Of a stretch of 15,086 nucleotides of DNA, positions 1 through 14,893 are shown piece by piece. The notes under the pieces are model-generated. The model saw only the letters and a list, made by a program, of their open reading frames with translations. It was not told the DNA's origin and did not search any database. A program made the position numbers and the translations under genes. Within the stretch, counting starts at the first letter, position 1. Each line of letters begins with the position of its first letter. The stretch comes from Candidatus Odinarchaeota archaeon (GTDB lineage Archaea > Asgardarchaeota > Odinarchaeia > Odinarchaeales > Odinarchaeaceae): NCBI GenBank assembly GCA_038826135.1, contig JAWBON010000029.1, forward strand, positions 1-15,086, in the 5' to 3' direction.

Positions 1-458
1 GAAGTCTCGCTCTCCACAATAGAGAGTGTATCTAAAGATTCTGCTAATTTACTTGTAGTATTACCAGGTTTATCTTCTAATATTAATCTACCTGTCGAGG
101 CTTCAATCCGTCCTTTAATTTCCCCTTTACCGATAGCCTCTATTACTATTGCTTTAACGTCAGAATACTCCATGTTCAGCTCAGCAGATAGTTTATCTAA
201 ACTTACACTATCATATGCTTTAATTGAATTAACAATCTGTTCAAACGCTCTTCTACTCTTAAAATAACTTTCAGCTGCTGCTATATACAGGAAGAAGGCT
301 GGTATGAAAAGCCAGAAACCCCACCACGCCAAACCTAAAAATAATATTTGCAGTAACCCGAAAACTATGCTTAACACACCTATAATGGTGAAAACTATTG
401 CTACCCCTAGGGTTGTTATATACGGTTTTTTATTGTACTCTAATTTCTCCGGTCCCAT
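1..458 (-). CDS. Membrane protein with N-terminal TM helices and a PCI-like winged-helix domain (3' end runs off the window)
   Basis: Manual translation from ATG at 458, with an in-frame TAG just upstream at 471-473; open to the window edge: MGPEKLEYNKKPYITTLGVAIVFTIIGVLSIVFGLLQILFLGLAWWGFWLFIPAFFLYIAAAESYFKSRRAFEQIVNSIKAYDSVSLDKLSAELNMEYSDVKAIVIEAIGKGELKGRIEASTGRLILEDKPGNTTSKLAESLDTLSIVESET... The segment YDSVSLDKLSAELNM-x-DVKAIVIEAIGKGELKGRIEASTGRLIL resembles the C-terminal winged helix of PCI/PINT domains. Confidence 0.75.
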   Translation of the reverse strand, partial: MGPEKLEYNKKPYITTLGVAIVFTIIGVLSIVFGLLQILFLGLAWWGFWLFIPAFFLYIAAAESYFKSRRAFEQIVNSIKAYDSVSLDKLSAELNMEYSDVKAIVIEAIGKGEIKGRIEASTGRLILEDKPGNTTSKLAESLDTLSIVESET

Positions 459-3242: not shown

Positions 3243-3869
3243 TCACATCTTACACCAGTCTCCAACAGGCCAGCCGAGCCCCGCATCCACATACAGGTGT
3301 TCGAACGTTTCCTTAGCGTCAGCTGTGAAATACGGGTAAGGACAAACCCATTCGCCGTTATCAATTATTCCAAAGTGTATGTGAGATCCTGAACCGTGAT
3401 GTAATAATTCACCCAGCGTTTGATTAGCCTCCACGTGATCCCCAACATTAACAATTAAGGCATCTAACTGATATCTGCCGTATGTTTCATTTAAAGCCCA
3501 TGATTCGAATGCTATAATCACACTCCACCTGCTGTTCAATCTTAAACGGAGATTAGTCTGCCATGTATTCATGGCCTCGTTTTCAAAAAAGCTTATATCC
3601 TCCACATATGCTTCACACGGTGCTACTATAATAGTTGTATCGTTAACTAGAAAGTCGAAGCCGTTGTGAAAGCGATCCGGTTCTACTTGACCGTAGCCTT
3701 GAATCATGGAGAGATTAGAGTAATCATATAACGGTAAAATTAACTGTGGATCCCGGTCTAAAGGCAAGGTGTCAGGTAAACTTGTATTAACATGCCATAA
3801 TGTGAAGCCTATAATGCAGGCTGCTATTATCACGGTTGAACCTGCTAAAATCAGTTTCTTATTTGCCAA
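3243..3869 (-). CDS. Membrane-anchored M23 metallopeptidase-like protein (paralogue A)
   Basis: TTG start with SD GGTGAGG upstream; N-terminal TM/signal anchor; HNGFD (HxxxD), IVAPCEAYV, VNVGDHVEANQTLG and HIHFGI (HxH) match M23/LytM zinc motifs. Confidence 0.8.
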   Translation of the reverse strand: MANKKLILAGSTVIIAACIIGFTLWHVNTSLPDTLPLDRDPQLILPLYDYSNLSMIQGYGQVEPDRFHNGFDFLVNDTTIIVAPCEAYVEDISFFENEAMNTWQTNLRLRLNSRWSVIIAFESWALNETYGRYQLDALIVNVGDHVEANQTLGELLHHGSGSHIHFGIIDNGEWVCPYPYFTADAKETFEHLYVDAGLGWPVGDWCKM

Positions 3870-3965
3870 TTAAATCCCTCACCCTGGTTTAAAATATTTT
3901 ATTAATAATAAGATATTATTATATTTGTAAATATTTTTTTCGATTAAATGTTTAATCTGCTTATC

Positions 3966-3979
3966 AAAAAAAAGAAAAA
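3966..3979 (-). terminator. Oligo-T archaeal-type terminator for paralogue B
   Basis: Minus strand reads TTTTTCTTTTTTTT about 30 nt after the stop of the 4010..4663 gene. Confidence 0.45.
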
Positions 3980-4009
3980 TATTTCTAATATAGATGTTTC
4001 TACGTGATT

Positions 4010-4663
4010 TCAGGGGGGTGTTAGCTTACACCAGTCATCTGACGGCTGGCCGATTACAGTATATAATTCTTCAAATTTTATTTTCGATTCCTGTGTAAAA
4101 TACTGGTAGGGGCATTTATCCTCGTAACAGCTTTCATTTCCAGGATCCGGGTAGTATCTCACTGTAAAATGTAAATGACTGTCGCCTAGTGAAAAGCATA
4201 GGAGCTGCCCTAGTGTTTGATTGGTGGAAACTATTTGACCGACAGATACTGTTATAGCCGCCAGTTGCTGTTCAGCCCCTGCTTCACTATCAGCATTGCA
4301 TTCGAATGCTAGTAGTATTCTCCAGTACTTGTTGAGTCTCAGCTCCATGTTAACCTGCCACCGACTGGAAATTTCATTATGCCATGCGTTTAAGTAATTT
4401 ACATACGCGTCACACGGTGAGACGATAACGGTAGTGTCATTTATCACGTAATCGAATCCTGGATGGAAGTAGTCTGATGTAACCCATCCGAATCCCTGAA
4501 TTTTATATAAATTCGAATATTCATATACTGGGAGTATCAGCTGCGGGTCTTCTCCTTCAGGTAGCGTGTCTGGTATACTTGACATGAGATTCCATACTGC
4601 AAACCCTGAAACGCAAGCAACTATCACTACAACTCCTAAACCAGCTAAAACCGTATGCTTCAA
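4010..4663 (-). CDS. Membrane-anchored M23 metallopeptidase-like protein (paralogue B)
   Basis: TTG start with SD GGTGGT; N-terminal TM; HPGFD, IVSPCDAYV, VSVGQIVSTNQTLG and HLHFTV motifs; colinear with paralogue A (PDTLP, DPQLILP, NDTT, CPYxYFT, DWCK). Confidence 0.8.
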   Translation of the reverse strand: MKHTVLAGLGVVVIVACVSGFAVWNLMSSIPDTLPEGEDPQLILPVYEYSNLYKIQGFGWVTSDYFHPGFDYVINDTTVIVSPCDAYVNYLNAWHNEISSRWQVNMELRLNKYWRILLAFECNADSEAGAEQQLAAITVSVGQIVSTNQTLGQLLCFSLGDSHLHFTVRYYPDPGNESCYEDKCPYQYFTQESKIKFEELYTVIGQPSDDWCKLTPP

Positions 4664-4802
4664 ATATTACACCATTAATTTTTAAATTGAAATTATTCTA
4701 GATTTTATTATATAAATTTTTAAAAGCATAACGGTTCTCTCATCTAACATGTTTATTAATTTTAAAGGTTTGTAAGATAAGCTTGTAGAGGCCTACCGTA
4801 AT

Positions 4803-12320: not shown

Positions 12321-12418
12321 TGTTTAACCCTATACTATTTAGACCATCATAATATCCAATATTTTATCCTAACTAATATATGCTGATTTAACATCTAATA
12401 ATATTAAAGGTGAAGTTT

Positions 12419-12757
12419 ATGCTAATTTTATTCGGAGAGGAGGTAATTAATTTTATTAAAAGTAAACTCCCTGTTTTAGATGAGAATCTTATTGAAATAA
12501 TTGTTTTCGGAAGCTTCGCTCGTGGAGATTACACTCCTCAAAGCGATATTGACTTATTATTAATAACTAAAAATATTAAAGCCACAGAAAATGTTTTCTC
12601 AAATTTGAGAATAACCATATTAATGAATTTCGAGATTGTTGTATCCGCCATATACTACACGCCTGAAACATTCAAGAAATCTGTTGAAAAAGGTCTGCCT
12701 TTAATAAAAACCATTTTAAAGGAGGGTAAAACAATTTGGAGAAGAAGCGCAACCTAA
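12419..12757 (+). CDS. Minimal nucleotidyltransferase (MNT), antitoxin of an MNT-HEPN pair
   Basis: IIVFGSFARGDY-x-SDIDLLLI (GSxxRG...SDxD). Start placed at ATG 12419 behind SD AGGTGA rather than GTG 12410. Confidence 0.88.
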   Translation: MLILFGEEVINFIKSKLPVLDENLIEIIVFGSFARGDYTPQSDIDLLLITKNIKATENVFSNLRITILMNFEIVVSAIYYTPETFKKSVEKGLPLIKTILKEGKTIWRRSAT

Positions 12758-13143
12758 TGGAAATAGCATTCAACCTCTTAAGTAAAGCTGAGCAGAAAGT
12801 TAAAAGCAGTAAAATACTCTTAGAGCACGATCTCATTGACGACTCTGTGAGCAGAGCGTACTACGCTGCCTTTTTAGCGGCTAAAGCAGCTTTACTTATT
12901 TTAGGAGAAGACCCTAAAACACATCAAGGAACTCTCACCTTATTCGGGCTAAAACTAGTTAAAAAAGGGTTACTCCCTGAAATACTAGGAAGATACTTAT
13001 CAGATCTATTAGAGAAAAGACAGGCTGCAGATTACGCGGTTATAAACTATCTGTCAAAAGAAGACGGTCAAGAATTAATCGTGAAAGCTGAGAAAATTAT
13101 TCAAGAAATAACTAAATTCCTAAACTCAAATTTTAAAAAGTAA
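12757..13143 (+). CDS. HEPN domain protein (COG1895/UPF0332-like), cognate of the MNT
   Basis: AEQKVKSSKILL, SVSRAYYAAFLAAKAALL, KTHQG, KRQAADY. ATG 12757 overlaps the MNT stop (TAATG), consistent with translational coupling. Confidence 0.88.
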   Translation: MEIAFNLLSKAEQKVKSSKILLEHDLIDDSVSRAYYAAFLAAKAALLILGEDPKTHQGTLTLFGLKLVKKGLLPEILGRYLSDLLEKRQAADYAVINYLSKEDGQELIVKAEKIIQEITKFLNSNFKK

Positions 13144-13218: not shown

Positions 13219-14259
13219 ATGGAGACACGTCATATCTTATTATTTCAGGATTCACGGAATTTAAACAATATTGATAGTGAATCTGTTGATTTAATCGTAA
13301 CCTCACCCCCTTATCCTATGATAGGTATGTGGGATAGTTTATTCTCATCTTTAAACTCCAAAATTTCAAACGCTCTTGAAGCTGGTAATAGTGAACTAGC
13401 ATTCGAGCTGATGCATAAAGAATTAGAAAAAGTTTGGGTTGAATCCTACCGTGTTTTAAAACCTGGTGGACTAGCTTGCATCGTAATCGGTGACGCTACT
13501 AGAACCGTGAACAGGGAATTTCAAATGTTTCCCTCCCACGCTAAAATCACATCTTACTGTTTAAGCTTGGGGTTTAAGGCTTTACCGGTAATAATCTGGC
13601 GTAAGCAAACAAACGCTCCTAACAAGTTTATGGGATCAGGTATGCTGCCACCAGGGGCTTACGTGACCTTAGAACATGAATACATACTATTATTCCGGAA
13701 AAATGGTAAAAGAATCTTCAAAACAGTGAAGGATGTTAAAAACCGTGGAGAGAGTGCCTTCTTCTGGGAGGAGCGTAACAACTGGTTTTCAGATATTTGG
13801 ATTGATCTCAAAGGAGTTAAACAAAATTTAAATGATAGCAAACTCCGGGGTAGAAGCGCAGCCTACCCCTTCGAGCTAGCTTACCGTTTAATAAACATGT
13901 TCTCAGTTAAAAATGACACTATTCTAGACCCTTTCCTCGGAACAGGGACAACAACAATAGCGGCTATAGCATCCCAGAGAAACAGCATCGGAGTTGAATT
14001 AGATACAAGCTTCAGAAACCACTTAATTAAAAAAATATTATCCGCAGAAGACTCATTAAACACTTACATCGAGGAGAGACTTCGTAAACACATGGATTTC
14101 ACACAACAATACGTAAAAACACGCGGACAACTAAAATACATTAATCGCAATTATGATTTCCCGGTAATGACAAGACAGGAAGAAAAAATCATACTACCAG
14201 TTATTAAAAGAATACTGCAAACAGATTCTAATACATTTATAGTAGAATATTTAAAGTAG
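13219..14259 (+). CDS. Beta-class N4-cytosine/N6-adenine DNA methyltransferase, orphan in this window
   Basis: Catalytic motif IV VTSPPY near the N-terminus and SAM-binding motif I LDPFLGTGTT near the C-terminus (beta order); SPPY favours m4C. Confidence 0.9.
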   Translation: METRHILLFQDSRNLNNIDSESVDLIVTSPPYPMIGMWDSLFSSLNSKISNALEAGNSELAFELMHKELEKVWVESYRVLKPGGLACIVIGDATRTVNREFQMFPSHAKITSYCLSLGFKALPVIIWRKQTNAPNKFMGSGMLPPGAYVTLEHEYILLFRKNGKRIFKTVKDVKNRGESAFFWEERNNWFSDIWIDLKGVKQNLNDSKLRGRSAAYPFELAYRLINMFSVKNDTILDPFLGTGTTTIAAIASQRNSIGVELDTSFRNHLIKKILSAEDSLNTYIEERLRKHMDFTQQYVKTRGQLKYINRNYDFPVMTRQEEKIILPVIKRILQTDSNTFIVEYLK

Positions 14260-14301
14260 CTAACCTATGATTTTATAAAATTAACATGTTAGAAAAATTT
14301 A

Positions 14302-14308
14302 TTTTTTT
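14302..14308 (+). terminator. Oligo-T terminator after the methyltransferase
   Basis: T7 tract in the convergent gap between the MTase and ICMT-family genes. Confidence 0.4.
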
Positions 14309-14311
14309 CAG

Positions 14312-14893
14312 CTATTCTTCCAAGATTTTGCTATCAGACGGTTGTTTTTCATCCTCAGGATTATGCCAGACTTTACCCGGGTAAGGTATTATAAACGGGA
14401 CTTTCCTCATATATTTAATATACTCTGAGCCGAATCTTTTAATCAACCTAGGTTCTTCAACTGTTTTCAACCATATAATCATTATAGTGAAAATAATCAG
14501 AGTGATGAAAACAGTCATCCCTATTGATCTGAATAATAAACCCATACCGGCTGGAAGCATACAGTACCCTAGGGTCATAGGATGCCTTATACGCGAGTAT
14601 AAACCAGTTCTCACCAGCCTCTTAGTGCTATCCTCTTTCACCAGCTCCCCCCAGGGGAGTCCTTTACCGTTTTTAAGAAGTGTCAGAGTAGCTTTTCTCC
14701 CAATAGCTATACCAGTAATTAAAACAGTTAAGCCGAATATAATATTAAGCGGAAAGGGAGGCCAGCTTGGTAATCCTAAAAGTATATCGAAACCCCAACC
14801 TCCGAAAAATGTTATCAAAGGAAAGAATACGATGAAAAGCAGTGAATAACCGCAAAGCGTTTTTCTTTTAATTTTCGGAATAGAATTAGACAT
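14312..14893 (-). CDS. Isoprenylcysteine carboxylmethyltransferase (ICMT/PEMT) family membrane methyltransferase
   Basis: Four hydrophobic segments; LVRTGLYSRIRHPM and EEPRLIKRFGSEYIKYMRKVPFIIP signatures. Start placed at ATG 14893 behind SD-like GGTGTG. Confidence 0.85.
   Translation of the reverse strand: MSNSIPKIKRKTLCGYSLLFIVFFPLITFFGGWGFDILLGLPSWPPFPLNIIFGLTVLITGIAIGRKATLTLLKNGKGLPWGELVKEDSTKRLVRTGLYSRIRHPMTLGYCMLPAGMGLLFRSIGMTVFITLIIFTIMIIWLKTVEEPRLIKRFGSEYIKYMRKVPFIIPYPGKVWHNPEDEKQPSDSKILEE

What the first reader, a model, noticed from the sequence alone, without database searches (positions are those of the whole stretch)
3243..4663. Tandem surface-anchored M23 (peptidoglycan-hydrolase fold) paralogues in an archaeon
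Seen: two adjacent diverged duplicates, each with its own SD and TTG start, an N-terminal membrane anchor, intact HxxxD and HxH zinc motifs, shared N-glycosylation sequons (NDT, NQT) and a shared CPY...DWCK Cys pair suggesting an extracellular disulfide; no LysM, SH3b or other cell-wall-binding domain. Known: characterised M23 enzymes (lysostaphin, LytM, zoocin A) cut peptidoglycan cross-links; archaea lack peptidoglycan, and some archaeal M23 proteins have been reported to attack bacteria. Inference: a surface-displayed, contact-range antibacterial or cell-wall-scavenging system diversified for different cross-bridges, or an S-layer/surface remodelling protease on a new substrate.
Basis: partly seen in the sequence, partly recalled or inferred. 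Interest (0 to 1): 0.72.

Follow-up and report, generated by a model that had tools for sequence, protein, structure and literature searches.

The report
Membrane-tethered variant M23 peptidase pair
A wall-less hot-spring Asgard archaeon (Odinarchaeia) carries two neighbouring genes for membrane-tethered zinc peptidases of the bacterial wall-cutting M23 fold, but they belong to an uncharacterised subfamily with a rebuilt active site and no wall-binding parts, so their target is probably not an intact bacterial wall.

Summary
Two minus-strand genes, 3243-3869 and 4010-4663, encode 208 and 217 aa paralogues that are 49% identical. Each has an N-terminal membrane helix, HxxxD and HxH motifs, shared sequons and no wall-binding domain. 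Both fold confidently as M23/LytM domains (pLDDT 94; Z 14 to Csd3). The host is an Odinarchaeia-like Asgard genome without Mur ligase, amidase or SLT genes.

New here: the pair belongs to a distinct M23 subfamily. The second catalytic His (LytM H260) is replaced by a 13-residue insert headed by an invariant Glu (E122) and closed by an invariant Gln (Q134). E122 is kept in 252 of 253 intact domains and is lost only where zinc ligands are also lost.

The close clade is Asgard-restricted among named records and patchy (126 of 400 genomes). It often occurs as adjacent genes or as fused double or triple domains. Remote members are bacterial.

The tether is only about 8-12 residues, the ectodomains are very acidic (pI 4.4), and 0 of 62 long relatives carry a murein-binding module. 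These points argue against a contact-range antibacterial weapon. The best reading is an active juxtamembrane ectopeptidase whose substrate is unknown.

First-stage notes of this scan flagged the same family on other genomes.

The parts
3243..3869 (-). Gene for P0001, 208 aa: membrane helix 4-29, short Pro-rich tether 30-41, M23-fold ectodomain about 37-187, C-terminal helix and DWCK tail. Key residues: Zn triad H68, D72, H165; H163; E122; Q134.
   Evidence: PF01551 32.6 bits; pLDDT 93.7; Z 14.4, rmsd 2.5 A over 124 aa to Csd3 4rnz. dN/dS is 0.12 against the O. yellowstonii orthologue.
4010..4663 (-). Gene for P0002, 217 aa: same architecture, the faster-evolving paralogue. It has a 9-residue insert after the HxH strand, has lost W124 and the NET sequon, and has three extra Cys. 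It keeps H67, D71, E121, Q133, H163 and H165.
   Evidence: PF01551 21.4 bits, below cut-off; branch length 0.64; pLDDT 94.5; Z 13.6 to Csd3.
3876..3884 (-). Shine-Dalgarno-like GGGTGAGGG, 7-15 nt upstream of the TTG start of P0001.
   Evidence: read directly from the sequence.
4670..4673 (-). Shine-Dalgarno-like GGTG, 7-10 nt upstream of the TTG start of P0002.
   Evidence: read directly from the sequence.
3966..3979 (-). Oligo-T run (TTTTTCTTTTTTTT) about 30 nt after the P0002 stop codon. It is a likely archaeal terminator, which would make the two genes separate transcription units (inferred).
   Evidence: That archaeal termination occurs at oligo-T runs is established knowledge.
3916..3926 (-). 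A/T-rich TATA-like stretch about 47-57 nt upstream of the P0001 start (inferred promoter).
   Evidence: Inference only.
4708..4716 (-). TATA-like TTTATATAA, 45-53 nt upstream of the P0002 start (inferred promoter).
   Evidence: Inference only.

Best explanation
Two separately transcribed paralogous genes each encode an N-in/C-out, single-pass membrane protein. Its probably N-glycosylated ectodomain is an M23/LytM-fold zinc peptidase held within a few nanometres of the archaeal membrane. They belong to an uncharacterised M23 subfamily. The zinc triad (H68, D72, H165) and the first His of HxH (H163) are kept. The second catalytic His is replaced by a 13-residue insert that begins with an invariant Phe-Glu (E122) and ends with an invariant Gln (Q134). 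I infer that E122 has taken over the water-activating or general-base role and that Q134 is structural. The most likely function is an active juxtamembrane endopeptidase that cuts soluble or self-surface peptides next to the cell. My best guess is trimming of environmental peptides, possibly including murein-derived stem peptides, for uptake by a peptide-fermenting Asgard cell. It is probably not a weapon that reaches into a bacterial wall. Shown here: genes, fold, motifs, subfamily signature, distribution. Inferred: topology, glycosylation, catalytic role of E122, substrate.
For: Fold: pLDDT 93.7 and 94.5. The top 50 Foldseek hits are all M23/LytM. VIA Z is 14.4 and 13.6 to Csd3. Motifs and signature: H68, D72, E122, Q134 and H163 are invariant, and H165 nearly so, in 21 close homologues. 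In the 168 best hits of 1.84 billion representatives, E122 is 164/164, Q134 is 162/165, H68 is 160/161 and D72 is 162/162. The canonical Y-x-H-L His aligns with Q134, with a 13-column insert starting at F-E-P (phmmer, hmmsearch, hhalign probability 98.8). Domain census: E122 is present in 252/253 domains with an intact metal site. It is lost in 5/19 degenerate domains, all of which have also lost H68 or D72 (Fisher p 6e-6, not corrected for relatedness). Q134 is kept in 18/19 degenerate domains. Eight domains replace H163 yet keep the triad and E122. Surface location: N-terminal hydrophobic segment in 154/170 single-domain members, and the N76-x-S/T sequon is kept in 21/21 with variable x. Short tether: the helix ends at residue 29 and structural alignments start at 37-42. 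Function retained: dN/dS 0.12. Not a wall enzyme of the host: no Mur_ligase_M, Amidase_2, Amidase_3 or SLT in a 93% complete genome. No murein-binding module in 0/62 long relatives; instead PKD, fn3, Big_2, TIG, propellers, dockerin and a T9SS tail.
Against: Every characterised active M23 enzyme cuts murein peptides or Gly-Gly bonds (review PMC9662197), so a murein-derived substrate remains the prior. No coordinates of the models were available, so I could not measure whether E122 or Q134 faces the zinc site. On strand register alone F121, not E122, would take the place of the lost His. No expression data were obtained. The family is absent from one congeneric genome and from many Asgard families, so its role is dispensable. 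The nutritional reading rests on context, not on a conserved transporter or operon, and none was found.
Confidence: 0.5

Rival explanations
1. Antibacterial or wall-scavenging murein hydrolases. The two paralogues cut different peptidoglycan cross-links of neighbouring bacteria on contact.
For: M23 fold and intact zinc motifs. Archaeal M23 hydrolases that kill bacteria exist (Woldo, PMC12352652). The patchy, multi-copy, fast-duplicating distribution resembles that of weapon genes. The host lacks murein.
Against: The tether of about 8-12 residues keeps the domain at the archaeal membrane. The ectodomains have pI 4.4 and charge -15 to -18, whereas most M23 domains are basic and none falls below pI 4. 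There is no murein-binding domain here or in 62 long relatives, unlike the Woldo-type enzymes. One catalytic His is missing. No partner amidase or glycosidase is present.
Confidence: 0.15
2. Self-directed surface protease. It matures or remodels the archaeon's own membrane-anchored or envelope glycoproteins, and this would be an Asgard-specific envelope function.
For: The juxtamembrane position suits substrates on the cell's own surface. The close clade is confined to Asgard genomes among named records. The conserved sequon points to a glycoprotein of the envelope.
Against: It is present in only 126/400 Asgard genomes and 37/85 genera. It is absent from a congeneric genome that is 93% complete and from whole families. 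No conserved neighbouring substrate gene was found.
Confidence: 0.2
3. Non-catalytic zinc-binding LytM module, like EnvC/NlpD, SpoIIQ, Csd2 or mammalian LECT2. It would act as a binding or activating partner, and the two paralogues might work as a pair.
For: A catalytic His is missing and an extra element sits at the active centre, as described for LECT2. LECT2 matches the models with Z 10.4 and 9.8. Adjacent gene pairs and fused double or triple domains recur, and the distal domain is often degenerate, which recalls Csd1-Csd2.
Against: Both window proteins keep all three zinc ligands, H163 and E122. [quoted passage not shown]
Confidence: 0.1

Closest known systems
M23B peptidases with solved structures: H. 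pylori Csd3 (4rnz), C. jejuni Pgp3 (6jmx), S. aureus LytM, lysostaphin, V. cholerae ShyA
   Same: Same beta-sheet fold (Z 12-14, rmsd 2.5-3 A over about 125 residues). Same H-x3-D and H-x-H zinc motifs. Same lipoyl-like hairpin before HxH.
   Different: The His about 30 residues before HxH (LytM H260, Pgp3 H216) is missing. In its place is a 13-residue insert with a helix (128-136) bounded by an invariant F-E and an invariant Q. The conserved D/N-P after HxH is C-P here. The protein has a single-pass membrane anchor, is very acidic, and its host has no murein.
Archaeal modular peptidoglycan hydrolases (Woldo/Danwoldo of Halogranum salarium; Strock et al. 2025, PMC12352652)
   Same: An M23 domain encoded by an archaeon that has no murein, with a patchy distribution.
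   Different: The Woldo type carries two PG_binding_1 domains, branches within Bacillota M23 domains and is secreted. It was reported for Halobacteriales and Nanoarchaeia, and Asgard is not mentioned in the main text. The proteins here have no binding module, are membrane-tethered, and form a deep Asgard clade of a variant subfamily.
Degenerate LytM-fold proteins (EnvC, NlpD, SpoIIQ, Csd2, human LECT2)
   Same: M23 fold with a departure from the full catalytic set. LECT2 also lacks a catalytic His and has an added loop at the active centre.
   Different: [quoted passage not shown] The family here keeps the whole triad, H163 and an extra invariant Glu under strong constraint.
Csd1-Csd2 heterodimer of H. 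pylori (5j1l): one active and one degenerate M23 domain
   Same: In this family, paired domains recur as adjacent genes or fusions, often with a degenerate distal domain.
   Different: Both window paralogues keep a full site, and no binding between them has been shown.

Membership tests
Peptidase family M23 (MEROPS M23 / Pfam PF01551) | M23/LytM beta-sheet fold | tested here: met
   Both AF2 models have pLDDT 94. The top 50 Foldseek hits are all M23/LytM. VIA Z is 14.4 and 13.6, rmsd 2.5 A over 124 and 121 aa, to Csd3.
Peptidase family M23 (MEROPS M23 / Pfam PF01551) | Pfam PF01551 score above the gathering cut-off (28.7 bits) | tested here: met
   P0001 scores 32.6 bits. P0002 scores only 21.4 bits, below the cut-off, but is 49% identical to P0001.
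Peptidase family M23 (MEROPS M23 / Pfam PF01551) | H(x)nD zinc motif | tested here: met
   H68-N-G-F-D72 in P0001 and H67-P-G-F-D71 in P0002. The motif is invariant in the family and aligns with the motif of Pgp3.
Peptidase family M23 (MEROPS M23 / Pfam PF01551) | HxH motif (first His catalytic, second His a zinc ligand) | tested here: met
   H163-I-H165 in P0001 and H163-L-H165 in P0002, aligned with the H-L-H of Pgp3.
Peptidase family M23 (MEROPS M23 / Pfam PF01551) | Second catalytic His about 30 residues before HxH (LytM H260, lysostaphin H329; review PMC9662197) | tested here: not met
   Sequence and profile alignments place the invariant Q134 at this position, after a 13-residue insert that begins F121-E122. 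No His is conserved there in 168 relatives.
Peptidase family M23 (MEROPS M23 / Pfam PF01551) | Zinc bound and peptide-bond hydrolysis | not testable with these tools
   This needs metal analysis and enzyme assays.
Peptidoglycan hydrolase (functional class) | Cleaves murein stem peptides or cross-bridges | not testable with these tools
   Indirect pointers only: no murein-binding module, acidic pI, short tether.
Modular archaeal PGH (Woldo type) | Catalytic domain joined to a peptidoglycan-binding domain | tested here: not met
   Pfam finds only PF01551 in both proteins. 0 of 62 long relatives carry LysM, SH3b, PG_binding or SPOR.
Degenerate LytM factors (EnvC/NlpD/Csd2 type) | Loss of zinc ligands or catalytic motifs | tested here: not met
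   H68, D72, H163 and H165 are all present in both proteins and in 253 of 272 family domains.

The most novel reading that the evidence does not exclude
The F-E...Q group is a new catalytic variant of the M23 fold in which a glutamate replaces one of the two water-activating histidines. Its Asgard-restricted clade would act on a non-murein substrate of the Asgard cell surface, for example the cell's own envelope or protrusion glycoproteins. That would make it a lineage-specific surface-remodelling protease, often working as paired active and degenerate domains.
Probability: 0.2. Interest if true: 0.7.

Novelty: new variant of a known kind. Interest (0 to 1): 0.5.

Why it matters
Asgard archaea are the closest known relatives of eukaryotes, and almost nothing is known about the enzymes on their cell surface. 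This work defines a widespread but patchy family of membrane-tethered zinc peptidases. The family uses a bacterial wall-cutting fold in wall-less cells, and its active site has been rebuilt around a glutamate. If the glutamate is catalytic, it extends the known chemistry of the M23 family. It would also mean that database names such as 'peptidoglycan DD-metalloendopeptidase' for these Asgard proteins are unproven. The substrate would say whether Asgard cells feed on bacterial debris, shape their own envelope, or interact with partners through these enzymes. The proteins are small and single-domain and come from a thermophile, so they are easy targets for expression and crystallography.

Tried and rejected
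1. Complex prediction on the P0001 and P0002 ectodomains gave no verdict (score 0.00). This says nothing about binding either way.

2. Public sequencing runs: no RNA holder is listed. Two runs labelled metatranscriptomic but flagged 'probably DNA' hold short contigs over 3610-4017, which cannot show expression. A DNA contig of 844 nt from the best holder, possibly the source sample, bridges 3343-4186, so the tandem arrangement is in the assembly data.

3. The search for related loci with the broad alignment A2 failed because no stretch was conserved enough. The scan with A1 used a single peptide pattern, so it undersamples.

4. The search for homologous proteins with lengths 'longer' found nothing. 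That is weak evidence, since fused forms were found by other routes.

5. The viral contig scan found no relative. PHROGs gave only weak generic M23 matches.

6. The listing of cluster members gave almost no taxon names for distant members. I therefore could not build a taxon-labelled tree or infer a donor lineage.

7. I looked for a conserved gene neighbourhood and found none beyond within-order synteny.

8. I considered a class III (pilin-type) signal peptide. There is no K/R-G/A cleavage motif, so I rejected it by eye.

9. I considered a lipobox (I-A-A-C, I-V-A-C). The Cys lies inside the helix and is not conserved outside Odin and a few other copies, so this is unproven.

10. Model coordinates are not exposed by the tools, so zinc-site geometry, the position of E122 and Q134, and the C176-C206 distance could not be measured.

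Full report
**Observation.** The window holds two minus-strand ORFs at exactly the stated coordinates, 3243-3869 (P0001, 208 aa) and 4010-4663 (P0002, 217 aa). They are 49% identical over their whole length (E 8e-69). Each starts at the first TTG after an in-frame stop, and homologues begin at the same point with M-x-K-K. SD-like GGGTGAGGG and GGTG lie 7-15 nt and 7-10 nt upstream. An oligo-T run follows the stop of the upstream gene, and each gene has its own A/T-rich TATA-like stretch. I therefore infer two transcription units.

Both proteins have a strongly hydrophobic N-terminal helix. Both have H-x3-D and H-x-H, the shared sequons NDT and NQT, and the shared Cys residues C85, C176 and C206. 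Pfam finds only PF01551. P0001 scores above the cut-off and P0002 below it. C176 is kept in homologues that lack both possible partner cysteines, so the proposed disulfide is not established.

**Host.** The best homologues are from Ca. Odinarchaeum yellowstonii (85% and 57% identity), followed by other Asgard lineages. The locus is syntenic with the complete O. yellowstonii chromosome: DUF763, the EndoIII-like gene, DUF1848, aldo-keto reductase, archaemetzincin, MptA and the rest. The window's own genome is 1.26 Mb and 93% complete, and these two genes are its only M23 matches. It has no Mur ligase domain, so it makes neither murein nor pseudomurein. It also has no Amidase_2, Amidase_3 or SLT. 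Near-identical DNA occurs only in hot-spring metagenomes.

**Fold.** AlphaFold models built with family alignments are confident: pLDDT 93.7 and 94.5, pTM 0.84 and 0.86. The top 50 Foldseek matches of P0001 are all M23/LytM proteins. VIA-align gives Z 14.4 (rmsd 2.5 A over 124 aa) for P0001 and Z 13.6 for P0002 against Csd3. LytM, lysostaphin, ShyA, EnvC, SpoIIQ and human LECT2 follow further down the list. Structural alignments begin at residues 37-42, while the membrane helix ends at residue 29. The catalytic domain is therefore tethered by only about 8-12 Pro-rich residues.

**A variant active site.** The M23 review (PMC9662197) lists two groups of key residues. The zinc ligands are the His and Asp of H(x)nD and the second His of HxH. 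The two water-activating residues are the first His of HxH and a His about 30 residues upstream (LytM H260). In this family the triad (H68, D72, H165) and H163 are present, but the upstream His is not.

Three alignments agree on this. phmmer and a family profile against Pgp3, and hhalign of the family (A2) against seven canonical M23 domains taken from bacterial genomes (A3; probability 98.8), all align the canonical Y-[GA]-H-[LM] with Y-A-F-E-P, then a 13-column insert, then Q-L. In the models the insert forms a helix (128-136).

E122 and Q134 are essentially invariant. E122 is 164/164 and Q134 is 162/165 among the best 168 hits of a profile search of 1.84 billion representatives. That search found 992 clusters at E<=1e-3 and 325 at E<=1e-10.

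A census of 272 domains separates the two residues. E122 is present in 252 of 253 domains with an intact metal site. It is lost in 5 of 19 degenerate domains, and all five have also lost a zinc ligand. Q134 persists in 18 of the 19 degenerate domains. Eight domains have replaced H163 by R, L, I or Q yet keep the triad and E122.

I infer that E122 is part of the catalytic machinery and that Q134 is structural. Three caveats apply:
- The sequences were retrieved with a profile that rewards these residues.
- The counts are not corrected for relatedness.
- I could not measure geometry, because model coordinates are not exposed. By strand register alone, F121 rather than E122 takes the place of the lost His.

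**Distribution and evolution.** All named close homologues are Asgard: Odin, Hel, Sigyn, Njord, Atabey, Loki/Promethearchaeota, Thor and Heimdall. Two records labelled Bathyarchaeia and Deferrimicrobium are the same genomes that the GTDB-based search places in the Asgard phylum (G403 = G091 and G404 = G124).

Within the phylum the family is common but patchy. It occurs in 126 of 400 genomes, 27 of 90 high-quality genomes and 37 of 85 genera. Some families have 0/12 or 0/19 while others have 19/31 or 9/12. One congeneric genome that is 93% complete lacks it. Some genomes have up to 8 copies.

Adjacent gene pairs recur in G125, G123, G020, G324, G331, L005 and L009. Other Asgard genomes fuse two or three domains behind one membrane helix (398-569 aa), often with a degenerate last domain.

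A maximum-likelihood tree puts all Odin copies in one clade (support 99/97). P0001 groups with the O. yellowstonii orthologue (100/99), and P0002 sits on a long branch of 0.64. In O. yellowstonii and a second Odin genome the second paralogue lies beside a DNA methylase (in O. yellowstonii between the PEMT gene and the methylase, about 8 kb from the first copy). In this window that gap is empty, and the second copy sits next to the first. P0001 is under purifying selection, with dN/dS 0.12.

More remote members are bacterial. One lies on a contig with BamA, Skp and LpxD. One lies beside chemotaxis genes. Several have lipoprotein-type N-termini.

Among 62 long members the added domains are PKD, fn3, Big_2, TIG, beta-propellers, dockerin and a T9SS sorting tail. 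None is LysM, SH3b, PG_binding or SPOR. No gene neighbour is conserved across lineages.

**Function.** The strict conservation of the metal site and of E122, together with purifying selection, argues for an active enzyme rather than a degenerate LytM adaptor.

Four points argue against a contact-range antibacterial weapon:
- The tether is very short.
- The ectodomains have pI 4.4 and net charge -15 to -18. The review reports most M23 domains as basic and none below pI 4.
- No murein-binding module occurs anywhere in the subfamily sample.
- The genome has no partner murein hydrolases.

The patchy, expandable distribution argues against an essential envelope housekeeping role. My best reading, at confidence about 0.5, is a juxtamembrane ectopeptidase acting on soluble or self-surface peptides. 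Trimming of environmental peptides, possibly murein-derived, for uptake is the most likely use. The rivals are:
- self-surface remodelling, 0.2;
- antibacterial murein hydrolase, 0.15;
- non-catalytic adaptor, 0.1.

**Comparison with known systems and novelty.** The proteins are M23 by fold and by the two defining motifs, but they fail the test for the second catalytic His. They differ from the archaeal hydrolases shown to kill bacteria (Strock et al. 2025, PMC12352652). Those carry PG_binding_1 domains and branch with Bacillota M23 domains. They were reported for Halobacteriales and Nanoarchaeia, and Asgard is not mentioned in that paper's main text.

Full-text searches for Asgard with M23 or LytM found no paper on this family. 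Databases already name these proteins 'M23 family metallopeptidase' or 'peptidoglycan DD-metalloendopeptidase family protein', so their existence is catalogued. What appears undescribed in the literature I could search is the variant site, the Asgard-restricted clade and the paired-domain habit.

First-stage notes of this scan flagged the same family on other genomes (e1-5382810, e1-5415140, e1-4846295). One of them proposed by eye that F-E122-S replaces Y-x-H-L. My profile alignment and domain census partly support that.

I rate this a new variant of a known kind, with interest 0.5.

Noticed in passing
L016, L017, L020 (DATKZI01, labelled Ca. Bathyarchaeia) and L010 (DATKTP01, labelled Ca. 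Deferrimicrobium): The matches in these two genomes have the same contig numbers and coordinates as genomes G091 and G124. The GTDB-based search lists G091 and G124 in the same phylum as the window (Asgard). The NCBI organism labels therefore look wrong, and the L010 neighbours are homologous to a Helarchaeota contig.
   Followed up: partly
window 14259-14312, compared with L004:6001-6621 and L007:6001-6576: In O. yellowstonii the second M23 paralogue sits between the PEMT gene and the DNA methylase gene, and in a second Odin genome it likewise sits beside the methylase. In this window that gap is about 50 nt and empty, and the second copy lies beside the first, so one copy has moved within the genus.
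   Followed up: partly
L039:749-1945:-, L040:761-1969:-, L042:652-1848:-, L041:367-2076:-: Other Asgard genomes encode double and triple fusions of this domain behind one membrane helix. The first domains keep the full site, while the last domain of L041 and of L042 has lost zinc ligands.
   Followed up: partly
P0024, P0029, P0034, P0036, P0041, P0042, P0160, P0164: Eight family domains replace the first His of HxH (H163) with R, L, I or Q while keeping the zinc triad and E122. This suggests that H163 is less critical here than in canonical M23 enzymes.
   Followed up: no
window 3815-3826 and 4610-4621 (minus strand; residues 15-18 and 14-17): A lipobox-like I-A-A-C / I-V-A-C lies inside the membrane helix of both proteins and of several Odin and Sigyn homologues. 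It is not conserved across the family, and hydrophobic residues continue after the Cys.
   Followed up: no
window 3610-4017: Two hot-spring runs labelled metatranscriptomic but flagged 'probably DNA' hold short contigs covering the 5' part of P0001 and the intergenic spacer. This cannot be read as expression.
   Followed up: partly
window 12410-13143 and 13219-14259: A nucleotidyltransferase/HEPN pair lies next to an N6/N4 DNA methylase. The same trio flanks the second M23 paralogue in O. yellowstonii.
   Followed up: no
window 3-458 (minus strand): A PCI-domain protein lies at the window edge (Pfam PF01399, E 1.2e-7). The syntenic O. yellowstonii gene is 130 aa.
   Followed up: no
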